A stretch of DNA of 64,000 nt, taken from IMG/VR virus record IMGVR_UViG_2645727946_000002, one strand, 5' to 3'. The translations under genes and the position numbers were made by a program. Under the pieces are notes generated by a model, which worked only from the letters and a program-made list of their open reading frames with translations, had not been told where the DNA came from and made no database searches. The stretch comes from a virus (taxonomy: Duplodnaviria; Heunggongvirae; Uroviricota; Caudoviricetes). Position 1 is the stretch's first letter. The number at the start of each line of letters is the position of its first letter. Shown here one piece after another: positions 5,116 to 42,884 of the stretch.

Positions 5116-5399
5116 TGTCGCTCGCGCTGCGGCTCGGCAAGACGTTGGCCGAGCTGTGCGAGCAGATGTCGTCCGCCGAGCTGAGTCTCTGGATCGGGTA
5201 CGACGCGGAATCGCCGGTTGCAGACGATCGTGCGGATCTGCATGCGGCGATGATCGCGGCGGCGGCGTTTCAGTCGCAGGGCGCAAAGGTCAAGGTGTCG
5301 GACATGATGCCGAGATGGTCCGGCGAGCCCGCGACGGCGGAGGGAGAGGAAGGCGGCGGTGATCCGTTTCAAGCCGCCCTGATGCGCATGGCGAAGTAG
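4645..5399 (+). CDS. tail assembly chaperone G-T fusion produced by -1 programmed frameshift at A_AAA_AAG (5076..5082)
   Basis: Slippery heptamer read in G frame as GAC GCA AAA AAG. The -1 frame stays open to 5399 and encodes the T-like extension (…KK|AFCRTPGLRFLMSLALRLGKTLAELCEQMSSAELSLWIGYD…). Confidence 0.65.
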
Positions 5400-5412
5400 G
5401 CGAGAACACACT

Positions 5413-23325: not shown

Positions 23326-23376
23326 TATATCTTGGACTATGATGAAGTGATCCATCCCCTGAAAAGAGGTGCCGTC

Positions 23377-24045
23377 GTGTGCACCAACTATCGCGCCCCT
23401 GACGAAGATCCGGGTATCAGCGAGCTCCGGCTTGGTCTGATCGACCTATGGAAGAGAACGCCTTGGGAGTTGGAGATTTACCCGGACTATCTCGCGCCTA
23501 CGGTGGCGATGATCGACGGGCGCGTCGAGGCGTTCCTCGCGGGGTTCGGCTACTGGCCGCGCGCCTTGCAGAAAGCAAACATCGAGAGAGCGAAGGTCGA
23601 GGGCAAAGGGCCGCCGATCATGCGTAGCACGATGAACGTGCGCGACGACAATCTCGGGCGATCGCCGCTTTACGGGCCGGCATGGCGCGCGGGGCGCCGC
23701 TGTTTGATTCCGGCGCAGTGGATTTACGAGCCGTGCTATGAAACCGGCCGAAACGTCTGGCACCGAATCGGCCTGACCGGCTGGCGGCCGTATTGTGTTG
23801 CGGGGATTTGGCGGACTTTGAAAGGCCTGGACGGGAACGATCTGCACACAATGGCGATGATCACCGTCAACGCCGAGCGCGATCCCATCATGTCGCGCAT
23901 GCATAAGCCCGGCGACGAAAAGCGATCGGTCGTCATACTCCGACCTGACGATTGGGAAGAATGGCTCTCGACCGGAAATGTCGACGCCGCGCGCGCTATG
24001 TTGCAGCTTTACTCGGCCGACGAACTCGTTGCGGCCCCAAAATAG
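23377..24045 (+). CDS. SOS response-associated peptidase (SRAP / YedK family, abasic-site processing)
   Basis: GTG start gives the obligatory Met-Cys N-terminus (M-CTNYRAPDE…), with SD AAGAGG 8 nt upstream. C-terminal …VVILRPDDWEEWL typical of SRAP. Confidence 0.8.
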   Translation: MCTNYRAPDEDPGISELRLGLIDLWKRTPWELEIYPDYLAPTVAMIDGRVEAFLAGFGYWPRALQKANIERAKVEGKGPPIMRSTMNVRDDNLGRSPLYGPAWRAGRRCLIPAQWIYEPCYETGRNVWHRIGLTGWRPYCVAGIWRTLKGLDGNDLHTMAMITVNAERDPIMSRMHKPGDEKRSVVILRPDDWEEWLSTGNVDAARAMLQLYSADELVAAPK

Positions 24046-24802: not shown

Positions 24803-25372
24803 CTAAATATCCAAATTAAGAGGTCCAATGTGAAATTTGTCGATCGCAATAGGCTTCACGTCGGCTTCAAATTCAATATGAGCGCCATTTTTGAAATTGA
24901 TAGATGCGCGGTACCAGATGTCAATCAAGGGTGATAGGTATTTATTATTTGTTGATAACTCGCCTTTTTTAAAGTGAAGAGCAAGGCCGCCTACGCCGTA
25001 ACCAAAGATGTTGGCGGATATATCGAGCACGTATTCGCCATCACTCGGATTTGTTACTTCGATGTGTACATTTATAGCCGGGGGCACGGTAAAATCTTTT
25101 TTTAATATGGATGTGGAGTCGTTAGATTCCACCAATGCGATCGTCCCGTTTGCTCCAGTCGCATTAGATACAACGCCCGATACCGTGGCAGCAACAGAAG
25201 GTTTCCACTCGGTTCCAAAATATTCGTGCAGGAGTGCATCCGCGATCACGTCCTTTGAATCGTCATTTCGCGAGAAATTAGGATCTATTTTGGAATATAC
25301 GTCTAAAATTTTTTTGGAAAAAAATAGTGCCAGTTCTTTTTGCTGTTCAGTCACTGCGATCCGATTCGACAT
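24803..25372 (-). CDS. hypothetical protein (AT-rich, horizontally acquired cargo)
   Basis: Low-GC ORF in a high-GC genome. GGAG 6 nt upstream of ATG 25372 (MSNRIAVTEQQ…). No recognisable domain. Confidence 0.5.
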   Translation of the reverse strand: MSNRIAVTEQQKELALFFSKKILDVYSKIDPNFSRNDDSKDVIADALLHEYFGTEWKPSVAATVSGVVSNATGANGTIALVESNDSTSILKKDFTVPPAINVHIEVTNPSDGEYVLDISANIFGYGVGGLALHFKKGELSTNNKYLSPLIDIWYRASINFKNGAHIEFEADVKPIAIDKFHIGPLNLDI

Positions 25373-25647
25373 CGCCATCTCCGTATCGATTGATGATGGT
25401 TTAAGTGAAAACCGCCGTGTGGCAATCGGATGGTGATGTGTTGATTGTTTGGTGTCAAGGGGTGAGTCAATATTTAACATTCATTCTGGTGCGAGTGATG
25501 GTTTCTGATAGAAGGAAGTGCCTTTGATTTTATTCTTGATTTGGTTTTTGAAATTTTATCGGTTATCGTTGATATGAAGAAGGCATTGTGAACTGGGCCC
25601 CGAACGGACGCTCCGGAGTTGCGTCAAGGACCGCTGCGGAGCGCAAT

Positions 25648-26241
25648 TCAATGAATCTGGAATACGTTTTGCCGATGTCGACTCCCATAGGGATGGGATT
25701 CAGAGCTGCCTTCGTTCAGAAATACCGCACGCGTATGATGCGCCCAGTGCGCAGCCGCGTTCAGACACCTCGTCTTGGTCTCACTATGATCGAACTGCCA
25801 CGGCTGAATCACTTGATCGGGCTTTCGGATGTGGCGGCTAATCACGCTTAGGCGAACTGTACCGCCGCGATCCGTCATCCAGAACTGACACTCAATCACA
25901 CCGTAGTACGAATTCACGCTCCAAATCAAAATCGTTGAAAATCGCGAAACAGTGTGCTCGGCGTGCCCTTCAAACCCGCGCAAATCGTGGAGTGCTTGCA
26001 GCATGAAGCCCGGTAGCGTGTCGTCCCTTTGGTCATCCGGAACCCCAACATCAAAAAACACGATTCGGGGATGAGCGGCCTGTTTCCGCAGGGCACCTTG
26101 GAGGCGTCTTCCGAGCCGAAACCTGGGTCTACCTGTTGCATCTGCGTCCGCCAATTTCCGCACTAATGATGGGTCGGCCCAGCCCTTGTTGAGCGACGCG
26201 TTGAGCCTCCTTGCCCATAGCTTTCGCGCTTGCCTCGGCAA
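25648..26241 (-). CDS. hypothetical protein (N-terminal extent uncertain)
   Basis: 197-aa ORF. Its first about 38 codons overlap the SEC-C ORF in another frame, so the true start may be internal. Confidence 0.3.
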   Translation of the reverse strand: MPRQARKLWARRLNASLNKGWADPSLVRKLADADATGRPRFRLGRRLQGALRKQAAHPRIVFFDVGVPDDQRDDTLPGFMLQALHDLRGFEGHAEHTVSRFSTILIWSVNSYYGVIECQFWMTDRGGTVRLSVISRHIRKPDQVIQPWQFDHSETKTRCLNAAAHWAHHTRAVFLNEGSSESHPYGSRHRQNVFQIH

Positions 26242-26416
26242 TAGCCTTTTCTAGCTCAGGAGGCAAAGCTTGGTGTGCTGGTTCGAGCGCAGTCCGTCCG
26301 TGGCAATACTTATATTTTCTCCCGCTCCTGCATTGACAACGTTCGTTGCGTCCGTTTTTCGTAGCGGTAAGCACGCCCCAAGCCGACTCACTCCGAATAT
26401 ATTCGCACATCTCCAC
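26129..26416 (-). CDS. SEC-C metal-binding motif protein (small)
   Basis: CQCRSGRKYKYCHG matches the SEC-C Cx-C-x-S/G-G-x-K-Y-K-x-C-C/H-G signature. Confidence 0.3.
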   Translation of the reverse strand: MEMCEYIRSESAWGVLTATKNGRNERCQCRSGRKYKYCHGRTALEPAHQALPPELEKAIAEASAKAMGKEAQRVAQQGLGRPIISAEIGGRRCNR

Positions 26417-27050: not shown

Positions 27051-28751
27051 GTGTCCCAGACCGGTGTCCCACTTTTTGTGGATCACCACCTTGCACCTGC
27101 CTTCGCACCTCGCCAAATCGCGCCACGGCGTCTTCTACTTCCGCCTGACCTTCAGGGCGGCGGGCGCTACCAAGGAGAAGCGGAGATCTCCTTGCGCACC
27201 AAAACCCCCCAAGAAGCACGCTTCAAGGCCCTATGCCTTTCCGGGATAATGGCCGTTCACAAACAGAAGCAGCAGAGGGACATGGCCTTGGACTACCTCA
27301 ACACGGCAGAAGGCATTGCAGGCCAAGGCCCCGATAGCGACTTTCTTCTGAACCTGCTCCACCGTGTAGACCGTCAGCAGTTGGCTGAACTGGCCGGATT
27401 GTCGTTGGAAGCAATCAATGATCTGCTGACCTCCCCCGCAGCACCAGACACCCGCAGACTGGATATTGAATTGCCGGGCGGCTTTGCCCTTCGCAACGTC
27501 AACAGCGACGAGGACATGGGCCGTGCGGTTCAAATTCTCAAAACGCTGAACCTGTCGCCCGAAGCACTGGCAAAGCTGATTAGCAGCAACCTCAACCCTG
27601 CACAGGTGGTCCCTGTTCCGGCCTCACCGCCAGCAGCGCCGCGACACGACACCACGGAAGTAGGCGGCACCACCATTCAGGAGATGGTGCCGAGGTTTGC
27701 CACCCGCAAGAAGAACAAGCTTGCTGCCAAGACCCTTTACGAGTATGGCAACTATCACAGGAAGTTCGTGGAGTGGCTTGAGACTCGGACGAAGAAAAAA
27801 CACATTCCCGTCCACAGCATTACCCGTGCTGACTTGGCCGACTTCATTGACGATCTGCTGGACGAGGGGATCACCGCCAAGACCATTCAGCAAAAGTATC
27901 TCGCGGCGATCAGCGGCCTGTTTGAGCTCGCGCAGACGACCGGCGTCCTTCCTGAAGGTCAGCAATTGGTGAGCCGTGGGCACAAGATTTTCTCCAAGGC
28001 AGACGCCAAGAAGTCTGCTGTCGCCAACGGCTACAAAGCATTCACGGACGACGAACTGAAGAGGATTTTTCGGCCTGACCTCCTGAGCAAAGCTGAACGG
28101 CCTGCCGATTTTTGGCTCCCCATGCTGGGGCTCTTCACCGGTGGCCGGATCTCCGAGCTTGCGCAATTGGACATTGCCGACGTTCAACAGCACTACGGAG
28201 TTTGGGCCTTCTCAATCAACGACGAAGGGGACAAGTCCCTCAAGACGTTGGCGGCTATCCGCTTGATCCCGATTCACCCCGTGCTGATCCAATGCGGAAT
28301 CTTGGACTACGTGAACGACGCCAAGGCACACGGAACAAAGCTGTTTTCTTACCTAACGCCGAATAAGTTCGGCTCCTACGGTGATACACCCAGTGAGCGC
28401 TGGGGCAATCACCTTGACGTCCTGAATATCAAAGACCCGCAGAAGGTGTTCCACTCCTTCCGCCGCACGTCCAACAACCGCTTGAAGCAAAACGGTGTGT
28501 CTGAGGAAAGCCGCTGCCAGTTCGTCGGCCATGAGCATGACACGGTGAATTCCGCGATCTACTCAGATCCGCACAATCTGCAATTCCTGCTGGATAACGT
28601 GGCAAGCAAGCTGGACTATCCCGCGTTGGACTTCAAGGCGTTGAAATACCACCCAGGCCAGTTCAGCGACATGCTGGCGCACCTTTGCGCGAAGAAGGAG
28701 AGCATGGCGCGGCACAAAGCGGCCAAGGCAAAGTTGGGCGCCAATCGTTGA
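27051..28751 (+). CDS. tyrosine-type site-specific integrase (N-terminus probably split by frameshift near 27183)
   Basis: C-terminal catalytic region with HSFRRT…GHEHDTVNSAIYS (R/H/R/Y). Integrase N-terminal arm motif RHGVFYFRL is encoded in the adjacent frame at 27121..27147 and joins the main frame around 27183. Confidence 0.85.
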   Translation: MSQTGVPLFVDHHLAPAFAPRQIAPRRLLLPPDLQGGGRYQGEAEISLRTKTPQEARFKALCLSGIMAVHKQKQQRDMALDYLNTAEGIAGQGPDSDFLLNLLHRVDRQQLAELAGLSLEAINDLLTSPAAPDTRRLDIELPGGFALRNVNSDEDMGRAVQILKTLNLSPEALAKLISSNLNPAQVVPVPASPPAAPRHDTTEVGGTTIQEMVPRFATRKKNKLAAKTLYEYGNYHRKFVEWLETRTKKKHIPVHSITRADLADFIDDLLDEGITAKTIQQKYLAAISGLFELAQTTGVLPEGQQLVSRGHKIFSKADAKKSAVANGYKAFTDDELKRIFRPDLLSKAERPADFWLPMLGLFTGGRISELAQLDIADVQQHYGVWAFSINDEGDKSLKTLAAIRLIPIHPVLIQCGILDYVNDAKAHGTKLFSYLTPNKFGSYGDTPSERWGNHLDVLNIKDPQKVFHSFRRTSNNRLKQNGVSEESRCQFVGHEHDTVNSAIYSDPHNLQFLLDNVASKLDYPALDFKALKYHPGQFSDMLAHLCAKKESMARHKAAKAKLGANR

Positions 28752-28918
28752 AACGTTGCCCACCGCTCAGGCTGCGCCTGCCTATGGAAAGCCTTGCTCT
28801 TGTTTGCCAAAGGGCAACGGCAAGGTTTTCCACAGGTCCAGCCGTGGGCAACAAGCGCCGTTGGTGGACGGCGGCAAACAGAGACTCAGGGAAACCAATT
28901 CGGATCAAACACTCAACG

Positions 28919-30553
28919 CTATTCCTCTTTCTTCACCTTGGCGCTGTCGAGTCGCGTTGCAAGATAAGAAACAAGGCTCAGAATATTCAAGCAATCCAGC
29001 TCCGAAATTACTTCCGGCACAATTTTAGCCATGGGCGTGTGATTAATCGGATTTCTGAATCCGGTCATTAACCCTCGCGTTAGAAATTGCTGCCCCTCTT
29101 GCATATTGAATTTTGATTCTGTATCCAAATCATTTATCTGAATATTGGCATACTTCGTAACTTTATCCGCACCAGTTCTGACAGAAAACATATCTGCAAG
29201 CTTTACGCCATCAACATCCTGACCAGACAATTCTCTAATCTTTAGGCCGTAAAGCTTTGCCCCTTGATCTGCGGCGTGACCGTATTGCTTATTCTTGTAG
29301 TATTCGGCGACGCCATCTTTAAGGCTCTCATGCAGATGCCGCCAATGTAAGAGAGGGTATTCCGGGATAAGCGCATACAATTCTTTCACTACCGGCGCAA
29401 ACGTCTCGGCAACATCCTCATTGCCGCCCATTTTTTTGACAATTGACTCTACGGGGCCGCGAACATCATCCGGCAGCGTGTCAAACCATTTATCGACATC
29501 TATGCCAGTTTCTTTTTGAAGGTCTTTATCCTTCTTTTCGGCCCTCTTTTTTCTCCAATCTTGACCCACGCGGCCGATCAGCTCGGAAAGATGCTTTCGA
29601 AAAGCAGCCATCTCTGGATTGTCCCAGTTAATGGACTGCCGATTGGTTGAAATGACATCTTCATCAAGAAGGTCAATGAAGTCTGCCTTTATCCAGCCTG
29701 TGAGGTATTGATAGAAATGACTGGAAGCACTCTCTGAAAAATATTCGGGCAAATTTACCAATTTCCCGCGTGAAAAAATCGCTATCCCCCGGAGACCTGA
29801 ACTCGGAGGAATTGGGGTTTTCACCGTGATAAAGGTAAGCTCGATCTTGCCAACGTATTCGCTGCCTTTATCTATGAGATCGTCTTGCGTCCATTTGAAC
29901 TGCTCTTCAACATTGCTGTAACGACGATCATTGGAAACCGTAGCAACTTTCCCCTTGGAATCTTTCAGCGTTATCTGAAATCCCGCATCAACGATAAATA
30001 TGCGAGAAAGGCTGTCTGCGACGGCCTCGATGTCAAACAAGCTCTTTCTCTTCAGATTTGACAACTGGATGGTTGTGCCGGATTTCCTATCGGTCTTCTC
30101 ATCAATCAAATCGGTTTGTGGATTATAGACTCCTTCTGCGGTTAACAAAGAGTCCCAATTGAGCGTAAACCGATTTCGCAAACCGTCTTTGATCGTGTCC
30201 ACAACAACATCTTTTGCCAACCCGAAAAGTGCAAGCTTACCCAGTCCTTTTTTCCCGGTAGGAAGCCGATTAAATTTCAGCGACGGCTTATCTCCATCCG
30301 CCGCTCTACGATTTCTTCCGATCATCAGAAATCGATTCTGAATGTCATCGGACGACATTCCTGTCCCATCGTCGTAAACGGTTATGGCCGTGGGCGTCCC
30401 ATTTTGCTCCAGAAACTCGACCCGCACATTACTCGCATCGGCGTCATACGCATTCGAGATCAGTTCGGCCAAGGCGGGAGGCAGCGTCGAATACATTTTG
30501 ACGCCCAGATGCTCGATCGTCTTCGGATCAAACTTCAATTCATACTTAGCCAC
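28919..30553 (-). CDS. GHKL-superfamily ATPase (HATPase_c_3-like), candidate restriction/defence partner of the adjacent C5-MTase
   Basis: N-box ELISNAYDADASNV, G1 box YDDGTGM, G2 box GKKGLGKLALFG. 544 aa. Start overlaps the MTase stop by 8 nt. AT-rich codon usage. Confidence 0.7.
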   Translation of the reverse strand: MAKYELKFDPKTIEHLGVKMYSTLPPALAELISNAYDADASNVRVEFLEQNGTPTAITVYDDGTGMSSDDIQNRFLMIGRNRRAADGDKPSLKFNRLPTGKKGLGKLALFGLAKDVVVDTIKDGLRNRFTLNWDSLLTAEGVYNPQTDLIDEKTDRKSGTTIQLSNLKRKSLFDIEAVADSLSRIFIVDAGFQITLKDSKGKVATVSNDRRYSNVEEQFKWTQDDLIDKGSEYVGKIELTFITVKTPIPPSSGLRGIAIFSRGKLVNLPEYFSESASSHFYQYLTGWIKADFIDLLDEDVISTNRQSINWDNPEMAAFRKHLSELIGRVGQDWRKKRAEKKDKDLQKETGIDVDKWFDTLPDDVRGPVESIVKKMGGNEDVAETFAPVVKELYALIPEYPLLHWRHLHESLKDGVAEYYKNKQYGHAADQGAKLYGLKIRELSGQDVDGVKLADMFSVRTGADKVTKYANIQINDLDTESKFNMQEGQQFLTRGLMTGFRNPINHTPMAKIVPEVISELDCLNILSLVSYLATRLDSAKVKKEE

Positions 30554-31595
30554 GCTCCACCTCCTGCAAGTGTGCCCGATATTGAACGGCCTGCCTCCGA
30601 ATGAATTCGGGTGGCAACGCGTTTCCTATCATCAATGCAACCGCATCCTTTCCCCTGCCAGTGGAAAATCTGTAGCGTGGCGGAAAAGTTTGCAAGAGCG
30701 CGGCTTCGCGCAGTGTAATCGGCCTATCCTCTTCGGGATGTATAAATCGTCCCTTTGATGGATTGGTGCACCCACCCGTAATGGTAGGCGCGACATCCTT
30801 CCAGGCCATCCTGCCATAAACGTCGCGATAGCTATCCGGGCGCTTCAGATGACAATTCAGCCAATATTTTTTTGGAATATCAGATCGCGACCCGCCATCC
30901 CTTGGAACCATTGATATCAGATTTTTGACCTTCTCACTTCTGGATGTCGGAAAATCATGCAATGGATCGCCGCTCATTCCGGGAGGCAATAGATCTGCTA
31001 TTGCGTCCTTAACTGTTCTCCGTTCTTTGACTGGATGAGCATCTGGAATCTTACCAAACCGAGACGCCTTAACGAGCAATCTTTTCCTTCGCTGAGGCAC
31101 CCCGTAATCAGCCGCGTCTTTCACTTGAGCGAAAGCATCGTCTATTTGATAACCTAGAGCGTGCAGGCGAGACTTTAACTCGTGAACTCGCCAATCCTTC
31201 GCCAAAGCAGGAACATTCTCCAGCATTACGGTTTTTGGAAGCATCGCCTCAACGAAGCGAATAAACTCGAACACGAGATCATTCCGCTCATCTTCAATTG
31301 AAGTGGCTTTATTCCGCGTTCGGTGCGACGAAAAACCTTGGCAAGGAGGACAACCTGCCAACAGATCCAACTCCCCCCGCTTGAGCCCCAGTTCCTGCAT
31401 CACTGTCGTGGGGCACAGCATCCGGATATCGTCTTGATATATTTTTGCCGCTCGATTATTTAGTTTATAAGTCTCAGCGGCAATGGGGTTATTCTCTATT
31501 CCCGCGAGCACGCGGAAACCAGCCTTCTTAAGCCCCACCGTTAAACCGCCTGCACCACAAAAAAGGTCAATTGCAGTGTGGTTAATATTAGACAT
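30546..31595 (-). CDS. DNA (cytosine-5)-methyltransferase
   Basis: Motif I DLFCGAGG, motif IV PPCQGFS, ENV motif. Confidence 0.9.
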   Translation of the reverse strand: MSNINHTAIDLFCGAGGLTVGLKKAGFRVLAGIENNPIAAETYKLNNRAAKIYQDDIRMLCPTTVMQELGLKRGELDLLAGCPPCQGFSSHRTRNKATSIEDERNDLVFEFIRFVEAMLPKTVMLENVPALAKDWRVHELKSRLHALGYQIDDAFAQVKDAADYGVPQRRKRLLVKASRFGKIPDAHPVKERRTVKDAIADLLPPGMSGDPLHDFPTSRSEKVKNLISMVPRDGGSRSDIPKKYWLNCHLKRPDSYRDVYGRMAWKDVAPTITGGCTNPSKGRFIHPEEDRPITLREAALLQTFPPRYRFSTGRGKDAVALMIGNALPPEFIRRQAVQYRAHLQEVERG

Positions 31596-31772
31596 CGGCT
31601 TTTAATTTAGTACGTGGCTACGGTTGTTCATGGTCGATGATAACCAAGAACCATCATTTTTGCGAGCCACTCCGCCGAGGGGGCGGCAGATTTTTCAGGC
31701 CCGTGTCGCTTCCACGAGGACGAGAATTTCGCCTCGCAGGTATAGATACTCCCCGCCCGAAAATAATTTTGC

Positions 31773-32054
31773 TCAGAACGAAGCATCCGCGCCAAGTTTT
31801 TTCTCTGGCGGCTTGAGCAACGCCCAAGGTTGCACTTCAAGGGCCTTTGCTATGGCCTCGATGTTGGACAGCGACACATTCCACCGTGACCGCTCCACGG
31901 CAGACACATAAGTCCGATCCAGTCCGCATTCCAGGGCAAGGCGCTCTTGTGACCAGCCCCTTTGCACCCGCAGTAACCGCACATTGAAAGCCAGCACCCC
32001 ACGGAGATCGTCGGGACTGGGTAGTTCTGTGGGTGGCTTGGGCTTGGCAGACAT
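31773..32054 (-). CDS. XRE-family HTH protein, probable R-M controller (C) protein
   Basis: 93 aa HTH (…QERLALECGLDRTYVSAVERS…). Upstream of and co-directional with the MTase and ATPase genes. Confidence 0.55.
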   Translation of the reverse strand: MSAKPKPPTELPSPDDLRGVLAFNVRLLRVQRGWSQERLALECGLDRTYVSAVERSRWNVSLSNIEAIAKALEVQPWALLKPPEKKLGADASF

Positions 32055-32213
32055 CCCGGCAAGCTACCCATGTGATACATTTGCATCCACGGATTTTGCT
32101 TCACATATCGTGCGCATGTGAGGAGGTGCCGTGTATCAGTCCAACTGACCTGCCCCCTACAAACAGGGCCAGCCGGAGTCTAGTAAAGTTCGTTTTCGGA
32201 GAAGAAGACGAAC

Positions 32214-32477
32214 ATGAAGAAGCGCTTTACGGAACAGCAAATCATCGGGTTTCTGAAGGAAGCCGAGGCCGGTATGCCGGTCAAGGAACTGTGCAGGAAG
32301 CATGGGTTCAGTGACGCGTCGTTCTACACCTGGCGCGCGAAGTTCGGCGGCATGGAAGTCTCGGAAGCCCGCCGGCTCAAGGACCTCGAGGTGGAGAATG
32401 CCCGACTGAAGAAACTGCTGGCCGAAGCAATGCTCGATATGGAAGCGTTGAAGGTTGTCGTCAAGGGAAAGCCCTGA
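32214..32477 (+). CDS. IS3-family transposase OrfA
   Basis: MKKRFTEQQIIGFLKEAEAGMPVKELCRKHGFSDASFYTWRAKFGGMEV… HTH plus leucine zipper. Confidence 0.8.
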   Translation: MKKRFTEQQIIGFLKEAEAGMPVKELCRKHGFSDASFYTWRAKFGGMEVSEARRLKDLEVENARLKKLLAEAMLDMEALKVVVKGKP

Positions 32478-32500
32478 GCCCGCAAGCCAAACGCGAAGCA

Positions 32501-33331
32501 GTGTTGGCGATTCGGGAGAAGGTCAACATCTCCGAGCGCCGCGCCTGCCGGCTTGTCGGGCTTTCTCGCAGCGTGCTGCATTACGACGCGAAGCCGGACC
32601 ACGAGAATGAGGTGCTCGCGGCGCGTCTGGTGAAGTTGGCGCACGAACGTCGTCGATTCGGCTACCGCCGACTGCACGCCCTGGTGGAACGCGAAGGCAC
32701 GCACGCCAATCACAAGCGCATCTATCGCCTGTACCGTGAGGCAGGGCTGGCTGTGCGGCGCCGTCGCAAGCGCCACGGCGTCATGATTGAGCGCGAGCAA
32801 CTGGCATTGCCGGGCGCACCCAACGAGGTGTGGTCAATCGATTTCGTGATGGATGCGCTTTCCAACGGCCGGCGCGTGAAGTGCCTGACCGTCGTCGACG
32901 ATTTCACGAAAGAGGCTGTCGACATCGTCGTCGACCATGGCATCTCAGGTTTGTATGTCGCTCGGGCATTGGACCGTGCAGCTCGCTTCCGTGGCTATCC
33001 CAAGGCGGTGCGAACAGACCAGGGCCCCGAATTTACGAGCCGCGCGCTTGACCAGTGGGCGTATGCGAACGGCGTCACGCTGAAGTTGATTCAGGCGGGC
33101 AAGCCAACGCAGAATGCGTACATCGAATCGTTCAACGGCAAGTTCCGCGACGAATGCCTTAACGAGCACTGGTTCACGACGCTCGCGCACGCTCGGGCAG
33201 TCATCGCGGCATGGCGTCAGGACTACAAGCGCACTGAACTACCTTGCGCCGTCAGAGTTTGCGGCGAAACATCGGGCAACCGCGGACGCTCCTGCCGCTT
33301 TCCAGGAGTGGGTTTAAAGGGACTTTGCTAG
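32501..33331 (+). CDS. IS3-family transposase OrfB (DDE integrase core), expressed as OrfAB by -1 frameshift
   Basis: rve-domain sequence …WSIDFVMDAL…VVDDFTKE…RTDQGPEFTS…NAYIESFNGKFRDECLN. Confidence 0.8.
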   Translation: MLAIREKVNISERRACRLVGLSRSVLHYDAKPDHENEVLAARLVKLAHERRRFGYRRLHALVEREGTHANHKRIYRLYREAGLAVRRRRKRHGVMIEREQLALPGAPNEVWSIDFVMDALSNGRRVKCLTVVDDFTKEAVDIVVDHGISGLYVARALDRAARFRGYPKAVRTDQGPEFTSRALDQWAYANGVTLKLIQAGKPTQNAYIESFNGKFRDECLNEHWFTTLAHARAVIAAWRQDYKRTELPCAVRVCGETSGNRGRSCRFPGVGLKGLC

Positions 33332-33438
33332 AAGCCCATTGGCCCTATCGAAGGGGGCAGGTCAGCCGACTCATGCATCTTCCTGTCGTTGCTTGAGGTT
33401 CAGTGCTGGAAAAGTGAATTGTTCAAGGCCGACTCATT

Positions 33439-33846
33439 ATGGTGGACAAGATTTCCGCAGAAGCGCGATCCAAGCTCATGGCGCGTATCCATGGTAAGGA
33501 CACGAAACCTGAGTTGGCCGTGCGATCGATTCTTCACCGACTGGGCTTCAGATTCAGGCTTCATCGCAAAGACCTACCTGGCCGGCCCGATATTGTTCTG
33601 CCGAAACATCGTAAGATCATTTTGGTTCATGGCTGCTTCTGGCACGGCCACACGTGCCGACGGGGAGCGAAACCTAAGTCGAATCAAGACTTCTGGGTGC
33701 GGAAAATACTATCGAATCAGGAGCGCGATAGGCGGACCCTGGCCGCTCTAGCAGAGGCCGGCTGGTCTGTTCTCGAATTATGGGAGTGCGAGATACGTGC
33801 TGGAACCGGCTTAACTGAGCGCCTCATAGAATTCATGCGGGCGTAG
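33439..33846 (+). CDS. vsr: very short patch repair endonuclease Vsr
   Basis: KDTKPELAVRS…LPGRPDIVLPKHRKIILVHGCFWHGHTC…FWVRKILSNQERDRR…GWSVLELWEC. Confidence 0.85.
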   Translation: MVDKISAEARSKLMARIHGKDTKPELAVRSILHRLGFRFRLHRKDLPGRPDIVLPKHRKIILVHGCFWHGHTCRRGAKPKSNQDFWVRKILSNQERDRRTLAALAEAGWSVLELWECEIRAGTGLTERLIEFMRA

Positions 33847-34679: not shown

Positions 34680-34882
34680 AACACCTTCCGAGCGGTTCCG
34701 CTCGATTCTCGTAGATCCCCCGAGGCGCCTTATCTGGCGGCGTTTTGGGGGTGTCAATCCTCTTGTCCGTTCCGCCCCGTCCCGACACAATCTACCCATC
34801 GAATGGGGGTAAGTGAAGTGGTCAAGCAACGTTGGACACTGCTCCGGGATAGGCTGCGAGCGCTTCGAAACGCGCTGGCGGC

Positions 34883-35229
34883 AGTCCCTTCGCAGCCGAG
34901 TGAAGGCGACGATGGTTGTAAAAATCGACTAGATAATCAGTGATGTCTTGCTCTGCATGGCGGTGATCGACGTACAACTGGTCGCCGATCCATTCATTTT
35001 TGAGGCTTCGGAAGAAGCGCTCGACCACCGCGTTGTCCCAACAGTTGCCGCGCCGACTCATGCTCTGGATCGTGCCACGGGCGCGCAGCTCGGCGAGAAA
35101 GCGCGTGCTCGTGTATTGGCAGCCCTGATCCGAATGGAACATCAGGCCTGGTGGCGGACGACGATGATCGTAAGCCCGTCTTAATGCCTTTAGTGCCAAG
35201 TCGGTGTCCGCGTGCTGACTAAACGCCCA
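34883..35229 (-). mobile_element. IS3-family orfB 3' fragment (347 bp), copy 1 of an inverted pair
   Basis: Encodes …WAFSQHADTDLALKALRRAYDHRRPPPGLMFHSDQGCQYTS…ERFFRSLKNEW…YNHRRLHSAAKGL. Identical to 40010..40356 on the opposite strand. Confidence 0.65.
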
Positions 35230-36021
35230 GCCCACCACGCGGCGCGCGTACTGGGGGAGCTTGCCGTCCCATTTCTCGATCGCCATCTGTTGCAGGATTT
35301 GGCTGTTCTCGCGTAGTGCTTTCGCTTTCACCTCGAGCGCTTCGGCCTCGCCCTTGGCGATCGCGACTTGCTTTGCCGCGTCCGCCTCGGCTGCACGCAG
35401 TTCGTTCTCCTTCTGCTGCGCGATCTGCGTCGCTGCGATCTTCCCGTTGATCGAGTTCATGACCTGCTCGGGGAGGCGCATCTGATTCACGAAATAGACC
35501 TTCTCGACACTGATTCCGACCTTCGCGGCGTTCGCCTTTACCTCGTCCTCGACGCGCTGCTGTAGCGCCGCCTTGCCCCTGCCGTAGACGTCCTCGACCG
35601 CCATCGACGCGCCGGCGAGATTCAGGGCGTCGCGCACGATCGCGCGCAGGTAGACGCCCGTGATCTCATCGACTCCGCGCCGATACTTCTGGAACACCTT
35701 GGGCGCGTTCTCACGCGGGATCGCGTAGCTCACGCCGATGTCGGTGTTGACCGACAGCCCCTCCACCGTCTGGAACGTGAACGACTCGTCGGACTTGCCA
35801 GCTTTGTCCCACACGTAGGACTGCGTGAACGTCGGGAAGATGAACATGTCGACGTTGGGCCCGTTGAAGTAGCGCCCGGGCCCCTTCACTTCGACGTTGA
35901 CACCACGGTCGTCGCCGTAGCGTTGTACCTTCACACCGACATAGCCGGCTGGGACGTTGTCGCAGCCGGCCGCGAGGAACATCGTCGGCGCGAGGATCAG
36001 AATCAGAAACAGGCGTTTCAC
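35230..36021 (-). pseudogene. SPFH/band-7 family lipoprotein, 3' end replaced by IS3 fragment
   Basis: GTG start with SD AAGGAGA. Lipoprotein signal MKRLFLILILAPTMFLAAGC, SPFH core and coiled coil, abrupt junction …KWDGKLPQYA | RRVVGWAFSQHADT (transposase). Confidence 0.7.
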
Positions 36022-36125
36022 TTGGTCTCCTTGAAATGAGGGGGGATGAATTTCACAAAGGCGGCGGCATATGCCAGCCACACGAACGGCACGGCGAGCA
36101 GGGTGATGCTGCTGTCCTGATTCAT
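36018..36125 (-). CDS. small membrane peptide overlapping SPFH start (possible NfeD-like partner)
   Basis: MNQDSSITLLAVPFVWLAYAAAFVKFIPPHFKETK. Its stop overlaps the SPFH GTG (GTGA). The frame is open further upstream, which would give a longer 2-TM product. Confidence 0.25.
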   Translation of the reverse strand: MNQDSSITLLAVPFVWLAYAAAFVKFIPPHFKETK

Positions 36126-36407
36126 CAGCCACGGGGTGACGATCGACAGCAGCACGAGAAACAGCACGGCCGCGACGATGAGCTTCGAAGCGGTTTTGAT
36201 TGGTATCTCCGGTAAAAAATGGCGGGGCGCGCATATGGGCCGCCCCGCCGAAAGGCCGCGCTTATCCGAGAGGAAATCCCGCGCGCGGCGGGCGGGGAAC
36301 TGCGGTGTGGCTTGCGTTGGTCACAAAAAGCCACGCGTCCGAAGCGCCGGAATGTGCGTGGCTATGGGGAGGGGCGTCGTGCTAGGATTTCCAGCAAACA
36401 GAATCAG

Positions 36408-37004
36408 ATGACGGGGTGCGACATGGACTGGCTGACATTTGTATCCAAGGTGATCGAGGCCACAGCGTGGCCGCTGGCCGTCCTTATCCTCGTGTTCAAG
36501 TTCAGCGACCGATTCCGCGAGTTGCTCGGCAATTTGACGGAGTTCAATCTCCCCGGGGGAATATCGGGAAAATTCGAAGCGCCGTTGCAAAACGCAGAAC
36601 ATCTAGCAAGGCAATTGGAGCTTACTTTTATCGGCGAAGGGGGCGTCGAATTCACGCCTGACCCGATTGCGCTCAATGCGAACCCGACTGGCGTGATCAT
36701 GGAGGCATGGAAGGAACTCACGTCGGTGGGGGGTGACCTTTTTAAGATGGCTCAAATTCTCGGGAGAGACGCACGGATCGTCAGTGGGAGCATTAGCAAA
36801 GACGTACTACGAGAGCTCGAATCTCGGTGCCTCGTGCCGGACGACGAGATAAAGCTCTTGAGAGAACTTCGCGAGATTCGCAATCGCGCTGCACATTCTG
36901 TTAAGGGCCGACCAACGCCAGATGAGGCCGAGCGATTTGTTTCGATTGTTCGCGCACTTGAGGCTGCTTGGATTGCTCGATTGGCGAGCGCGGAGCCGAG
37001 GTAA
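36408..37004 (+). CDS. membrane-anchored HEPN-like protein (Rx4H motif; DUF4145/Abi-like)
   Basis: N-terminal TM (ATAWPLAVLILVFKF). C-terminal LRELREIRNRAAHSVKG carries the HEPN R-x4-H signature. Lower GC than surroundings. Confidence 0.45.
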   Translation: MTGCDMDWLTFVSKVIEATAWPLAVLILVFKFSDRFRELLGNLTEFNLPGGISGKFEAPLQNAEHLARQLELTFIGEGGVEFTPDPIALNANPTGVIMEAWKELTSVGGDLFKMAQILGRDARIVSGSISKDVLRELESRCLVPDDEIKLLRELREIRNRAAHSVKGRPTPDEAERFVSIVRALEAAWIARLASAEPR

Positions 37005-41364: not shown

Positions 41365-42834
41365 GTGACATCCATGCGACGACTCTCCCTGCGCGCCGTG
41401 TCCGCGTGCTTCGCTTCGCTTGCGGCGATCGCAGCGCTCGCAACCGTGAAACACATCGATATGCCCGCCGACCCGGCGAGCGCCACGATCAACGTGCAGG
41501 CCGCGTGGGTCGAGATCGGCGACGCGAACCAGGCGATCGCCCGCGTGATCACGAATTTCATCCCGGCGTCGGCCGGCGATCCGCTGTGCCCACAGCTCGT
41601 CATCGACGGCAAGCTATCGCGGATGACGCTGCGCGTCGCCGCCGGCACCGCCGCGCAACGCCCGACCGCGAGCGACCCCGCCGATTCGAAGCCGTCGAGC
41701 TTCCCCGTGTCCGTCTGCGAAACCACGCTGCCCGCGAACGCCAAGGACGTGAGTGTCGCCTCGCGCGCGTTGCCGCTGCCGAAGGCCGAGCCGCAGCGCG
41801 TCGCGATCGTCGCCGACACCGGCTGCCGGATGAAGAAGGCGGACAACGCGTTCCAGGCGTGCAGCGACGCGACCGTCTGGCCGTTCGCGACGATCGCCGC
41901 GAGCATCGCGAAGCTGAATCCGGATCTCGTGCTGCACGTCGGCGACTATCACTACCGCGAGAACGCGTGCCCGCCCGACATCGCCGGCTGCAGGAACAGC
42001 CCGTGGGGCTACGGCTGGGACGCGTGGCGCGCGGATCTGTTCGAGCCCGCCGCGCCGCTGCTCGCGAAAGCGCCGTGGGTCGTCGTGCGCGGCAACCATG
42101 AGGAATGCGCGCGCGCGGGCCAGGGCTGGTTCCGCTTTCTCGATCCGCACCCGTACAGCGACGCTCGCTCGTGCAACGATCCAGCCAACGACGGCAGCGC
42201 GAACTATTCGGAACCGTATGCGGTATCGCTCGGCAGCGGCTCGCAAGTGATCGTGTTCGATACCGCGAAGGTCGGCCGCGCGGCGCTCAAGACGACCGAC
42301 ACGCAGTTCCAGATCTACCAGAAGCAGTTCGAGACGGTGGCCGCGCTCGCGAGCAAGCCGGGTATGTCGACGACGATCTTCACGAACCATCACCCGATCC
42401 TCGCGTTCACGCCGATCGCGGGCAGCACGCCCGCGCCGGGCAACCTCGCGCTGCAATCGGTGATGTCGAGCCTCAACGCGCAGGCGTACTACCCGCCCGG
42501 CGTGCACGTCGCGCTGCACGGCCACGTGCACGACTTCCAGGCGATCAATTTCGCGTCCGGCCATCCGGCGACGATCGTGTCGGGCAACGGCGGCGACAAC
42601 GTCGACGTCGCGTTGCCCGACCCGTTCCCGGCCGCGCTGACGCCCGCATCCGGCGCGGTCATCGACAAGCTGTCGCACAACAACAGCTTCGGTTTCCTGA
42701 TGATGGAACGCCGCCCCGCGCCGGCGACGGGCTGGGTTTTTCGCGCGTACTCGGCCGCCGGCAAGCTGCTTGCATCGTGCATGCAGGCCGGCACGACGCT
42801 CGCGTGCGACAAGACGGGGTTCATCGCGCCGTGA
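41365..42834 (+). CDS. secreted metallophosphoesterase (calcineurin-like)
   Basis: Signal peptide. Motifs VADTGC…GDYHY…GNHE…GHVHD. Confidence 0.8.
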   Translation: MTSMRRLSLRAVSACFASLAAIAALATVKHIDMPADPASATINVQAAWVEIGDANQAIARVITNFIPASAGDPLCPQLVIDGKLSRMTLRVAAGTAAQRPTASDPADSKPSSFPVSVCETTLPANAKDVSVASRALPLPKAEPQRVAIVADTGCRMKKADNAFQACSDATVWPFATIAASIAKLNPDLVLHVGDYHYRENACPPDIAGCRNSPWGYGWDAWRADLFEPAAPLLAKAPWVVVRGNHEECARAGQGWFRFLDPHPYSDARSCNDPANDGSANYSEPYAVSLGSGSQVIVFDTAKVGRAALKTTDTQFQIYQKQFETVAALASKPGMSTTIFTNHHPILAFTPIAGSTPAPGNLALQSVMSSLNAQAYYPPGVHVALHGHVHDFQAINFASGHPATIVSGNGGDNVDVALPDPFPAALTPASGAVIDKLSHNNSFGFLMMERRPAPATGWVFRAYSAAGKLLASCMQAGTTLACDKTGFIAP

Positions 42835-42884
42835 GCACGGGTTCAATTGACCGCCGTGCGCTGCGCGCGCATCGCGTACGCGGG

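What the first reader, a model, noticed from the sequence alone, without database searches (positions are those of the whole stretch)
28919..32054. C-protein / C5-methyltransferase / GHKL-ATPase operon: candidate ATP-dependent restriction or defence system on an integrase island
Three co-directional minus-strand genes. An XRE-type 93-aa HTH protein of controller (C) protein size is followed by a 177-nt gap. Then comes a canonical C5-MTase (DLFCGAGG, PPCQGFS, ENV). Its last 8 nt overlap the start of a 544-aa protein whose N-terminal 230 aa carry complete GHKL ATPase motifs (N-box E-x3-NAYDA, G1 box DDGTGM, G2 box GKKGLGKL). Its 300-aa C-terminal region has no recognisable domain. All three genes are AT-rich relative to the genome. 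A vsr gene sits nearby, and the whole unit is carried on a tyrosine-integrase island. I see no classical restriction endonuclease motif in the ATPase. If the ATPase is the restriction or effector component, this is an unusual MORC/MutL-like ATP-dependent partner for a Dcm-type MTase.
Basis: partly seen in the sequence, partly recalled or inferred. Interest (0 to 1): 0.65.

Follow-up and report, generated by a model that had tools for sequence, protein, structure and literature searches.

The report
Methyltransferase paired with MORC-like ATPase–HEPN nuclease
This is a Burkholderia copy of a widespread, already catalogued but never tested restriction-modification-like module, in which a cytosine methyltransferase is paired with a MutL/MORC-type ATPase fused to a HEPN (normally RNA-cutting) domain instead of a normal DNA-cutting enzyme.

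Summary
The three minus-strand genes exist as described: a 93-aa HTH, a 177-nt gap, a C5-MTase, and an 8-nt overlap into a 544-aa GHKL protein. One claim is wrong. The C-terminal region is recognisable. Residues ~166–312 are the S5/transducer half of a MORC/Hsp90-like ATPase module. Residues ~401–544 are a Ymh-family HEPN domain with an intact Rx4H motif.

The pairing is not unusual. In 74 of 80 genomes from many phyla, a C5-MTase abuts the GHKL-HEPN gene on the same strand. Vsr is a frequent third gene. No other nuclease recurs. All ATPase, HEPN and MTase catalytic residues are invariant in 72 pairs.

The N-terminal 375 residues are shared with BbrUII/HgiDII-type restriction enzymes, which carry a PD-(D/E)xK-like domain where this protein has HEPN. 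The architecture is already in the literature (REBASE R.NmeAIP; Orlowski & Bujnicki 2008; Iyer 2008; Anantharaman 2013). I found no experimental test.

The HTH controller is a Burkholderia-lineage add-on. It is lost in two strains whose M and R remain intact.

Most likely function: a methylation-gated, ATP-dependent defence or addiction module. Whether it cuts RNA or DNA is unresolved. It is a new member of a known kind, of moderate interest.

The parts
28919..30553 (-). 'R' gene: a 544-aa fusion of a GHKL ATPase, an S5 transducer, a helical linker and a Ymh-family HEPN domain (NCBI name: 'TIGR02391 family protein')
   Evidence: ORF. HATPase_c_3 plus Hypoth_Ymh. TIGR02391, and a partial match to BbrUII/HgiDII. 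AF2 model with pLDDT 86.4. 100% identical to a B. pseudomallei protein.
30059..30553 (-). GHKL (Bergerat-fold) ATPase domain, aa 1-165. It includes the N-terminal strap, the N-box E30/N34/D37, the G1 box D61-G65 and the G2 lid G100-K106.
   Evidence: Motif positions. These residues are invariant in 72 genomes. Foldseek matches MORC2/3, Hsp90/TRAP1 and SMCHD1 at E~1e-13.
29618..30058 (-). S5-fold transducer / middle domain, aa 166-312. Its second half (aa 256-312, including invariant R305 and W310) is the most conserved part of the protein.
   Evidence: The Foldseek alignments span ~400 residues of MORC/Hsp90 ATPase modules. Per-segment identities. Invariance.
29354..29617 (-). Helical linker, aa 313-400: a long helix at 313-349 plus further helices. 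Homology to BbrUII/HgiDII-type enzymes ends inside it, at about aa 375.
   Evidence: AF2 secondary structure. The NF050001 match covers aa 4-375 against profile positions 1-398 of 659.
28922..29353 (-). HEPN domain of the Ymh family (PF09509/TIGR02391), aa 401-544
29039..29056 (-). HEPN catalytic motif R500-N-P-I-N-H505 (Rx4H)
   Evidence: Motif position. R500 and H505 are present in 72/72 genome-derived homologues.
30560..30565 (-). Shine-Dalgarno AGGAGG, 6 nt upstream of the GTG start of R and inside the 3' end of the MTase gene (translational coupling)
   Evidence: Sequence.
30546..31595 (-). C5-cytosine DNA methyltransferase, 349 aa, catalytic Cys85; recognition sequence not determined
   Evidence: PF00145 at 184 bits and TIGR00675. 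PADLOC MTase_II and DruM. Motifs and catalytic Cys conserved 72/72.
31596..31772 (-). 177-nt C-M intergenic gap. It contains a CCGCC-N5-GGCGG hairpin (31672-31686) with no T-run on the sense strand, and no consensus sigma-70 promoter was detected.
   Evidence: The gap is 100% conserved among four Burkholderia loci apart from 3 positions.
31773..32054 (-). 93-aa XRE-type HTH, controller (C)-protein-like; a lineage-specific accessory gene
   Evidence: HTH_3. PADLOC Control_protein 4e-20. PDB matches: 3vk0 NHTF 7e-31, C.AhdI 6e-11, C.Esp1396I 4e-10, C.BclI 3e-9. Absent from 75 other loci. Disrupted in L083 and deleted in L084.
32070..32121 (-). Candidate operator: a perfect dyad TCACAT-N9-ATGTGA (32121-32101) plus a third TCACAT (32075-32070), 16-67 nt upstream of the HTH start codon
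   Evidence: Dyad search. The pentamers are the same as in the NHTF operator TGTNA/TNACA, but in a different arrangement. Not validated.
32146..33364 (+). IS3-family insertion sequence (orfA 32214-32477, orfB 32501-33331). It separates the operon from vsr and replaces everything more than ~91 nt upstream of the HTH gene.
   Evidence: Pfam HTH_Tnp_1 and rve. 14-bp terminal inverted repeats at 32145-32158 and 33352-33365. Comparison with the IS-free loci L085 and L086.
33439..33846 (+). vsr: very-short-patch repair endonuclease, divergent from the operon
   Evidence: PF03852 1e-30 and TIGR00632 1e-45. Vsr lies within 4 kb of the M/R pair in 36/80 loci and is adjacent in 26/80.
27051..28751 (+). 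Tyrosine-recombinase-like integrase, convergent with R. The island end is at 26966.
   Evidence: PHROG integrase 4e-29. Weak Pfam and NCBIfam Xer-type hits. All related loci lose homology with the window at 26966.

Best explanation
The locus is an NmeAI-type, restriction-modification-like module.

Conserved core: two translationally coupled genes.
- A C5-cytosine methyltransferase (M).
- An 'R' protein built like MutL, with an N-terminal GHKL ATPase plus S5 transducer (MORC/paraMORC-like), a helical linker, and a C-terminal nuclease domain. Here that domain is a Ymh-family HEPN domain.

Accessory genes: vsr repairs the T:G mismatches that 5-methylcytosine deamination creates. In Burkholderia only, a controller-like HTH has been added upstream of M.

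Proposed mechanism, shown steps:
- The domain architecture.
- Intact and invariant catalytic residues in both R domains and in M.
- Obligatory M-R linkage.
- An N-terminal module shared with BbrUII/HgiDII-type restriction enzymes.

Proposed mechanism, inferred steps:
- M marks host DNA.
- R dimerises through its HEPN domains. Like other GHKL clamps, it closes its N-terminal gate on DNA in an ATP-dependent cycle.
- Engaging unmethylated DNA, from a phage, a plasmid, or the host after M is lost, licenses the composite HEPN active site.
- Every characterised HEPN family I am aware of cuts RNA (own knowledge). So the most likely output is cleavage of tRNA, rRNA or mRNA, leading to growth arrest or abortive infection, rather than classical double-strand DNA cleavage.

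Sub-confidences:
- Membership of the GHKL-Ymh / C5-MTase family: ~0.9.
- A defence or addiction role gated by the MTase: ~0.7.
- RNA rather than DNA as the substrate: ~0.45.
For: - Architecture: for GHKL plus S5; for HEPN.
- Catalytic residues: E30, N34, D37, D61, G63, G65, G100-K106, R305, R500 and H505 are 72/72 conserved, as is the MTase catalytic Cys.
- Linkage: a same-strand adjacent C5-MTase in 74/80 loci from many phyla and some archaea, 39 of them overlapping or abutting. No other nuclease family recurs.
- Vsr is adjacent or nearby in 26-36 of 80 loci. This suggests the MTase really methylates host DNA (inference).
- The gene order M then R, with R's ribosome-binding site inside M, is the arrangement expected if M must be made with or before a dangerous R.
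- Sister proteins share aa 4-375 and carry PD-(D/E)xK-like C-termini (SduA_C, NucS_C, HSDR_N_2 hits). The named prototypes are listed as restriction enzymes: R.HgiDII in PMC2441816, and the BbrUII system in PMC5829577, where bypassing the endogenous R/M systems of B. breve UCC2003 with pre-methylated plasmid raised transformation more than 1000-fold.
- Another GHKL-nuclease fusion, VcSduA, needs both its ATPase and its nuclease residues for phage defence.
- The one characterised pAgo-associated HEPN is an RNase (PMC11162769), and PADLOC relates the window's HEPN to that group.
- Anantharaman et al. predicted RNase chemistry for Ymh and noted the paraMORC-Ymh fusions in R-M neighbourhoods.
Against: - No member of the GHKL-Ymh family has been tested. 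I found no paper reporting activity.
- Nothing here shows that R senses methylation. No R segment co-varies specifically with the MTase target-recognition domain, and M/R partners have been shuffled (L010, L022, L044, L059, L077).
- REBASE and PADLOC treat these proteins as Type II DNA endonucleases.
- An RNase effector gated by DNA methylation has no experimentally proven precedent that I know of.
- In this particular window the region upstream of the HTH gene has been replaced by an IS end, so expression may be altered.
Confidence: 0.5

Rival explanations
1. It is a genuine Type II-like DNA restriction endonuclease. R recognises the unmethylated MTase site and cleaves DNA, either with the HEPN domain acting as a DNase or through an unrecognised site in the conserved transducer region. 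This is what the REBASE name R.NmeAIP and the PADLOC 'REase_II' label imply.
For: - PADLOC REase_II models hit at 3e-33 and 4e-24.
- The match to the BbrUII/HgiDII restriction-enzyme model scores 223 bits over aa 4-375.
- R occupies the R slot next to M with no other nuclease present.
- The most conserved segment, aa 256-312, has no assigned catalytic role beyond the transducer.
Against: - The part shared with real restriction enzymes excludes their PD-(D/E)xK-like domain.
- To my knowledge the characterised HEPN families are metal-independent RNases (own knowledge), and Ymh was predicted to be an RNase.
- Restriction by R.NmeAI has never been demonstrated. It carries REBASE's 'P' (putative) suffix, and only methylation of CCGG was observed.
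Confidence: 0.25
2. It is a PrrC/RloC-style latent anticodon nuclease, as Anantharaman et al. proposed. R is held inactive by contact with its partner protein. It is unleashed when a phage anti-restriction factor or DNA damage disturbs that partner, rather than by sensing unmethylated DNA itself.
For: - An explicit literature proposal for paraMORC-Ymh fusions.
- The ATPase-plus-HEPN layout parallels PrrC/RloC.
- The lack of TRD-specific covariation is compatible with a protein-protein trigger.
Against: - PrrC sits inside a complete type I R-M system with its own nuclease (own knowledge). Here the only conserved partner is the MTase, and no separate restriction enzyme recurs.
- The ATPase is a GHKL, not an ABC ATPase.
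Confidence: 0.12
3. It has a non-defence role. R is a portable MutL-like helper for Vsr-dependent very-short-patch repair of the damage caused by the linked C5-MTase.
For: - E. coli MutL functionally interacts with Vsr, as cited in PMC2292703.
- Vsr is the only other strongly recurrent neighbour.
Against: - Vsr is absent from more than half of the loci, whereas M is almost always present.
- A repair helper would not need an invariant HEPN nuclease site.
- The sister family consists of restriction enzymes.
Confidence: 0.05
4. In this strain the module is a silenced or decaying remnant. The genes are intact, but the IS insertion that replaced the upstream region leaves them unexpressed.
For: - The IS end lies 91 nt upstream of the HTH start.
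- IS activity repeatedly hits this spot in other strains.
- No consensus promoter was found in the C-M gap.
Against: - All three ORFs are intact.
- The C-M-R block is 99.8% identical to that of an IS-free strain.
- The candidate operator dyads are retained.
- Burkholderia promoters often deviate from the E. coli consensus (own knowledge).
Confidence: 0.08

Closest known systems
NmeAI system of Neisseria meningitidis (M.NmeAI C5mCGG, R.NmeAIP, Vsr); REBASE 'R.NmeAIP' subfamily
   Same: The R protein has the same architecture, an N-terminal GHKL and a C-terminal Hypoth_Ymh. The gene set is the same: a modification gene, a 'restriction' gene and a short-patch-repair gene. The MTase is a C5 enzyme.
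   Different: I could not retrieve the NmeAI sequence, so direct homology was not measured. NmeAI has no reported controller gene. The window's MTase specificity is unknown. Restriction by NmeAI is itself unproven.
BbrUII/HgiDII family Type II restriction enzymes (NCBIfam NF050001; paraMORC3-like GHKL plus RE-fold nuclease)
   Same: About 40% identity over the first ~375 residues, covering GHKL, transducer and first linker helix. They are also partnered with DNA MTases.
   Different: Their C-terminal ~250 residues give PD-(D/E)xK-type hits (SduA_C, NucS_C, HSDR_N_2), whereas the window protein has HEPN. The window protein scores 223 bits against the 550-bit cut-off, so it is not a member.
Prokaryotic MORC/paraMORC GHKL ATPases of R-M operons (Iyer, Abhiman & Aravind 2008)
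   Same: A GHKL plus S5 module, association with Dcm-type MTases and Vsr, and carriage on mobile islands.
   Different: The 2008 paper did not describe the HEPN fusion. That came in 2013. I did not determine which paraMORC subfamily (1-5) this belongs to.
PrrC / RloC anticodon nucleases
   Same: A nucleotide-hydrolysing N-terminal domain fused to a C-terminal HEPN-type RNase, encoded with R-M genes. This was proposed as the functional analogue.
   Different: They have an ABC ATPase rather than a GHKL. PrrC is embedded in a complete type I system (own knowledge), whereas here only an MTase is conserved.
VcSduA (GHKL-Shedu, Vibrio cholerae)
   Same: A single-polypeptide GHKL ATPase plus C-terminal nuclease. 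It has experimentally shown anti-phage activity that needs both active sites.
   Different: Its nuclease is DUF4263/PD-(D/E)xK, and it is a stand-alone gene without an MTase.
R-M controller (C) proteins and Neisseria NHTF (PDB 3vk0)
   Same: The HTH matches NHTF closely over 83 residues (phmmer E 7e-31) and clearly resembles C.AhdI, C.Esp1396I and C.BclI. It has dyad repeats upstream built from the NHTF half-site pentamers.
   Different: It lies upstream of M rather than R (own knowledge of typical C/R arrangement). The exact NHTF box TGTNA-N11-TNACA is absent. The gene is not conserved with the system.

Membership tests
GHKL (Bergerat-fold) ATPase superfamily | Motifs I-IV: the N-box E-x3-N-x2-D, the G1 box DxGxG, the G2 lid GxxGxG, and a conserved Thr in motif IV | tested here: met
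   E30/N34/D37, D61/G63/G65 and G100-K106 are all 72/72; T160 is 71/72. HATPase_c_3 scores 74.9 bits against a cut-off of 25.
MORC / paraMORC-type module | A GHKL domain followed by an S5-fold transducer domain, together forming one ATPase module | tested here: met
   Foldseek aligns ~370-430 columns to MORC3, MORC2, TRAP1/Hsp90 and SMCHD1 ATPase modules at E 6e-14 to 1e-11. R305 in the transducer is invariant.
MORC / paraMORC-type module | Assignment to one of the paraMORC1-5 subfamilies by their signature motifs | not tested
   No subfamily models are available here. The affinity to BbrUII/HgiDII-like proteins with RE-fold C-termini suggests the paraMORC3 lineage, but that is inference only.
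BbrUII/HgiDII family restriction enzyme (NF050001, equivalog) | A full-length match above the curated cut-off (550 bits), including the C-terminal nuclease domain | tested here: not met
   222.9 bits, covering only profile positions 1-398 of 659.
HEPN superfamily, Ymh family (PF09509 / TIGR02391) | A family HMM match above the curated threshold | tested here: met
   PF09509 scores 68.1 bits (cut-off 25) and TIGR02391 scores 91.6 bits (cut-off 39.45).
HEPN superfamily, Ymh family (PF09509 / TIGR02391) | The conserved Rx4-6H catalytic motif | tested here: met
   R500-NPIN-H505. R and H are 72/72 in genome-derived homologues. In the 37 more diverse representatives, H is invariant and R is present in 33 (K in 3).
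HEPN superfamily, Ymh family (PF09509 / TIGR02391) | The all-alpha HEPN fold | tested here: met
   [not shown]
HEPN superfamily, Ymh family (PF09509 / TIGR02391) | Ribonuclease activity | not testable with these tools
   This needs biochemistry.
C5-cytosine DNA methyltransferase | Motifs I (FxGxG), IV (PCQ with the catalytic Cys), VI (ENV) and VIII (QxRxR), plus a family HMM match | tested here: met
   FCGAGG at aa 12, PPCQGFS at 83, ENV at 126, QRRKR at 168, and Cys85 72/72. PF00145 scores 184 bits and TIGR00675 scores 139 bits.
Type II restriction-modification system | A cognate MTase and endonuclease encoded together | tested here: met
   M and R overlap by 8 nt here. They are adjacent on the same strand in 74/80 loci.
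Type II restriction-modification system | The endonuclease cleaves unmodified DNA at or near the MTase recognition site | not testable with these tools
   No recognised DNase domain is present. No published activity was found for this family.
R-M controller (C) protein | A small HTH protein of the C-protein sequence family | tested here: met
   PADLOC Control_protein 3.9e-20. C.AhdI, C.Esp1396I and C.BclI match at 6e-11 to 3e-9.
R-M controller (C) protein | A C-box operator (paired dyads) upstream of its own gene | tested here: inconclusive
   TCACAT-N9-ATGTGA plus a third TCACAT were found. About 0.7 such dyads are expected by chance in 91 nt (my estimate). No comparators outside Burkholderia were available, and the exact NHTF box is absent.
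R-M controller (C) protein | Conserved association with, and position immediately upstream of, the restriction gene | tested here: not met
   The gene lies upstream of M, not R. No C-like HTH lies within 500 nt of the pair in 75 other loci. It is lost in L083 and L084, which keep M and R intact.
PrrC/RloC anticodon nucleases | An N-terminal ABC-type ATPase, and embedding in a complete R-M system that has its own nuclease | tested here: not met
   The ATPase is a GHKL. No second nuclease recurs.
Integrase-borne genomic island | A tyrosine recombinase at one end, a composition shift, and a strain-variable boundary | tested here: met
   PHROG integrase 4e-29. GC is 45-51% against 60-67% for the background. 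A common homology break lies at 26966. No tRNA or flanking direct repeats were found.

The most novel reading that the evidence does not exclude
The proteins that REBASE and PADLOC file as 'Type II restriction enzymes' of the NmeAI/GHKL-Ymh type may not be DNA endonucleases at all. On this reading they are ATP-driven, MORC-like DNA clamps that read the methylation state set by the partner C5-MTase. They respond to unmodified DNA by switching on a HEPN RNase, so 'restriction' is executed as RNA cleavage and abortive infection. That would be a distinct class of methylation-gated immunity, present in thousands of genomes including archaea and CPR bacteria.
Probability: 0.35. Interest if true: 0.7.

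Novelty: new member of a known kind. Interest (0 to 1): 0.4.

Why it matters
The family is large. The representative search returned 335 clusters below 1e-30, and the 80 loci examined span many phyla plus archaea. Annotation pipelines label it as an ordinary Type II restriction enzyme or as a 'TIGR02391 family protein', and I found no experimental test of any member.

If the HEPN domain is the effector, these modules would couple a DNA-methylation self-mark to an RNA-targeting response. That would blur the line between restriction-modification and abortive infection. It would also give a bacterial model for how MORC-type ATPases read epigenetic marks.

For B. pseudomallei, the module is a strain-variable, IS-battered island gene set. 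It could affect gene flow and genetic tractability.

The locus itself adds no new architecture. Its value is as a clean, compact and testable example of M plus R, with natural controller-less variants.

Tried and rejected
- I searched the window for the exact NHTF operator TGTNA-N11-TNACA with one mismatch allowed. There were 4 hits against 7.8 expected, and none near the HTH gene.
- The sigma-70 promoter and terminator scan of 28700-32300 found nothing above shuffled expectation and no promoter in the C-M gap.
- The tRNA scan found none in the window, so no tRNA attachment site can be named.
- Self-BLAST of 20-40 kb for flanking direct repeats found none.
- A PDB sequence search with the full protein gave only marginal MORC/MutL hits at E 0.02-0.2. 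A profile of the C-terminal domain gave nothing.
- I tested co-variation of R segments with the MTase target-recognition domain. Spearman correlations were 0.32-0.50 for every combination of R segment and MTase region, and no R segment was specific for the TRD. This is inconclusive on whether R reads DNA sequence.
- I looked for C-like HTH genes beside the pair in other genomes with phmmer and then jackhmmer. There were none within 500 nt in 75 loci.
- I looked for experimental papers on GHKL-HEPN, paraMORC or NmeAI restriction activity and found none. I had misremembered SPARHA as HEPN-associated. It is HNH-associated, so I dropped it as evidence.
- I did not try to infer the MTase recognition sequence.

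Full report
**1. Observation**

- ATPase ORF 28919-30553(-), 544 aa, GTG start.
- C5-MTase 30546-31595(-), 349 aa, overlapping the ATPase start by 8 nt.
- A 177-nt gap, 31596-31772.
- A 93-aa HTH gene, 31773-32054(-).

The quoted motifs are all present, and the family models agree. DNA_methylase scores 184 bits, HATPase_c_3 scores 8e-21 and HTH_3 scores 7e-12.

The GTG start is better supported than NCBI's shorter 525-aa model. An AGGAGG Shine-Dalgarno lies 6 nt upstream, inside the end of the MTase gene. Residues 8-21 are conserved across the family.

R is 46% GC and M is 50%, against a background of roughly 61-65%. The HTH gene is 58%. vsr (33439-33846, +) and a tyrosine-recombinase-like gene (27051-28751, +) flank the unit.

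**2.

The C-terminal 300 residues are not featureless.
- Pfam Hypoth_Ymh (PF09509) scores 68 bits against a cut-off of 25. NCBIfam TIGR02391 scores 92 bits against 39. Both cover aa ~405-535. PADLOC relates the same stretch to Argonaute-associated HEPN and to PD-Lambda-3_B.
- Ymh is one of the HEPN families defined by Anantharaman et al. 2013.
- I modelled the full protein (pLDDT 86.4) and the C-terminal 173 residues alone (pLDDT 84.6).
- Foldseek places the first ~400 residues on the MORC2/MORC3, Hsp90/TRAP1 and SMCHD1 ATPase modules at E~1e-13. So aa 166-312 are the S5 transducer.
- The HEPN Rx4H motif is R500-NPIN-H505.

The overall layout is MutL-like: a GHKL domain plus transducer, a helical linker, and a C-terminal nuclease-type domain.

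**3. Relatives and the domain swap**

NCBIfam's 'BbrUII/HgiDII family restriction enzyme' model matches aa 4-375 at 223 bits. That is below its 550-bit cut-off, and it covers only profile positions 1-398 of 659.

An exhaustive search of 1.84 billion representatives gave 335 hits below 1e-30, falling into two architectures:
- Proteins of about 545-570 aa that align end to end (GHKL-Ymh).
- Proteins of about 600-660 aa that align only to aa ~5-375.

Members of the second group match the BbrUII/HgiDII model full-length. Their C-termini give weak PD-(D/E)xK-type hits: SduA_C, NucS_C and HSDR_N_2.

So the window protein shares its ATPase module with enzymes listed as Type II restriction enzymes. 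R.HgiDII is described as GHKL plus an unassigned C-terminal domain, and the BbrUII system is one of the R/M barriers to transformation in B. breve. Where those enzymes have a DNase-type domain, the window protein carries a HEPN domain.

**4. Conserved neighbourhood**

I retrieved 80 loci from species-representative genomes. They span Proteobacteria, Planctomycetota, Bacteroidota, Patescibacteria (CPR), Nitrospirota, Firmicutes and several archaea.
- In 74 of 80, a C5-MTase lies directly beside the GHKL-Ymh gene on the same strand: 68 upstream and 6 downstream. In 39 the two genes overlap or abut.
- Of the 6 exceptions, 2 are contig-end truncations and 1 (L018) has a more divergent MTase 54 nt away.
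- Vsr is adjacent in 26 loci and within 4 kb in 36.
- Clustering all neighbours found no other recurrent nuclease.
- Across 72 complete pairs, every GHKL catalytic residue, the transducer R305, HEPN R500 and H505, and the MTase catalytic Cys are 100% conserved.

The conserved core is therefore M plus GHKL-HEPN, with vsr as a frequent accessory. Both halves of R are under purifying selection.

**5. The controller-like HTH**

The 93-aa protein matches PADLOC control-protein models at 4e-20. It also matches the solved controllers C.AhdI, C.Esp1396I and C.BclI. Its best solved relative is Neisseria NHTF (3vk0, 7e-31). NHTF is a C-protein-like autorepressor that binds TGTNA-N11-TNACA.

Upstream of the HTH gene there is a perfect dyad TCACAT-N9-ATGTGA (32121-32101) and a third TCACAT (32075-32070). 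They are built from the same pentamers but arranged differently. The exact NHTF box is absent.

The gene is not part of the conserved system:
- No C-like HTH lies within 500 nt of the pair in 75 other loci.
- It precedes M rather than R.
- Its GC content differs from that of M and R.
- In other B. pseudomallei strains it is interrupted by an insertion (L083) or largely deleted (L084), while M and R stay intact.

I read it as a probable regulator that was added in the Burkholderia lineage and is dispensable for tolerating M plus R.

**6. Context**

The C-M-R-integrase block (32145-27081) is 99.8% identical to that of another B. pseudomallei assembly, L086.

An IS3-family element (~32146-33364, with 14-bp terminal inverted repeats) lies between the HTH gene and vsr. 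In other strains the same interval holds 654 bp (L085) or 5.7 kb of MobC-type genes (L086).

All related loci lose homology with the window at exactly 26966. Beyond that point they carry actP/acs and the window does not. This supports a mobile island. No tRNA or flanking direct repeats were found.

**7. Mechanism**

Shown:
- The architecture.
- The invariant catalytic residues.
- The obligatory M-R linkage, with R's ribosome-binding site inside M.
- The ATPase module shared with restriction enzymes.
- The absence of any other nuclease.

Inferred:
- M marks the host DNA.
- R dimerises through HEPN. HEPN active sites are typically composite, and GHKL proteins have constitutive C-terminal dimers (own knowledge).
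- ATP-driven closure of the GHKL gate on unmodified DNA licenses the HEPN site.

Every characterised HEPN family I am aware of cuts RNA (own knowledge). That includes the pAgo-associated HEPN. So I favour RNA cleavage and growth arrest or abortive infection as the output (~0.45). Direct DNA cleavage, the REBASE reading, is the main rival (~0.25).

Anantharaman et al. proposed a PrrC/RloC-like role. That fits the RNase part. It fits the trigger less well, because no separate restriction enzyme is present to be guarded.

A MutL-like helper role for Vsr repair is unlikely. Vsr is missing from most loci, and the HEPN site is invariant.

I tested whether any R segment tracks the MTase target-recognition domain. 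None does so specifically, and partners have been shuffled. How R would sense DNA remains open.

**8. Comparison with what is known, and novelty**

- Iyer et al. 2008 described GHKL proteins beside Dcm-type MTases and Vsr.
- Orlowski & Bujnicki 2008 listed the GHKL plus Hypoth_Ymh architecture as the REBASE R.NmeAIP subfamily.
- Anantharaman et al. 2013 described paraMORC-Ymh fusions in R-M neighbourhoods.
- NmeAI is described as M (C5mCGG) plus R plus a patch-repair gene.

I found no experimental characterisation of any member. A different GHKL-nuclease fusion, VcSduA, has been shown to defend against phage.

The window therefore holds a new member of a known, computationally described and functionally untested kind. 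Its claims that the pairing is unusual and that the C-terminus is unrecognisable are not.

Interest is moderate (0.4). The open question, whether these 'restriction enzymes' act on RNA, is real and directly testable with this compact locus.

Noticed in passing
window 32146-33364: An IS3-family element (orfA 32214-32477, orfB 32501-33331, 14-bp terminal inverted repeats) lies between the HTH gene and vsr. Other strains have 654 bp or 5.7 kb of unrelated sequence at exactly the same two junctions, so this interval is a recombination or insertion hot spot.
   Followed up: partly
L083 ~5312-6640 and L084 ~6733 (window equivalents 31908-31913 and 31822-32141): In two other B. pseudomallei genomes the controller-like HTH gene is interrupted by an extra insertion (L083) or largely deleted (L084), while the MTase and GHKL-HEPN ORFs remain full length. 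These are natural controller-less variants.
   Followed up: partly
window 30497-30553: NCBI annotates the GHKL-HEPN protein as 525 aa starting at Met20. The GTG at 30553, with an AGGAGG ribosome-binding site and family-conserved residues 8-21, indicates that the true product is 544 aa and includes the N-terminal strap.
   Followed up: yes
window 34822-36234 (-): A chimeric ORF has an SPFH/Band_7 domain (aa 94-281) fused in frame to the C-terminal part of an rve transposase core. It is probably a host gene truncated by an IS fragment.
   Followed up: partly
window 36219-37004 (+): A 261-aa ORF gives a weak, sub-threshold hit to DUF4145 (20.5 bits against a cut-off of 23.1), a family the HEPN survey lists as HEPN. 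It may be a second HEPN-type gene on the same island.
   Followed up: no
window 23332-24045 (+) and 26129-26416 (-): An SOS-response-associated peptidase (SRAP) gene and a small SEC-C-motif ORF lie in the low-GC stretch (47-50% GC, 24-26 kb) to the left of the island end at 26966. ORFs 24803-25480 and 25648-26241 have no Pfam match.
   Followed up: no
L018, L026, L035-L037 versus the window protein: Within the GHKL-Ymh family the HEPN domain is itself exchanged. These proteins keep 53-69% identity to the window in the GHKL domain but only ~31% in the HEPN domain.
   Followed up: no
L010, L022 (also L044, L059, L077): M/R partner shuffling. L010 and L022 have an R protein 55-57% identical to the window's beside a very different C5-MTase (TRD 21-26% identical). 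L044, L059 and L077 have a similar MTase beside a more distant R.
   Followed up: partly
[not shown]
   Followed up: no
window 42000-44000: GC rises to 69-72% here, the highest in the window, immediately before a drop to 51% at 44-45 kb. I did not examine this.
   Followed up: no
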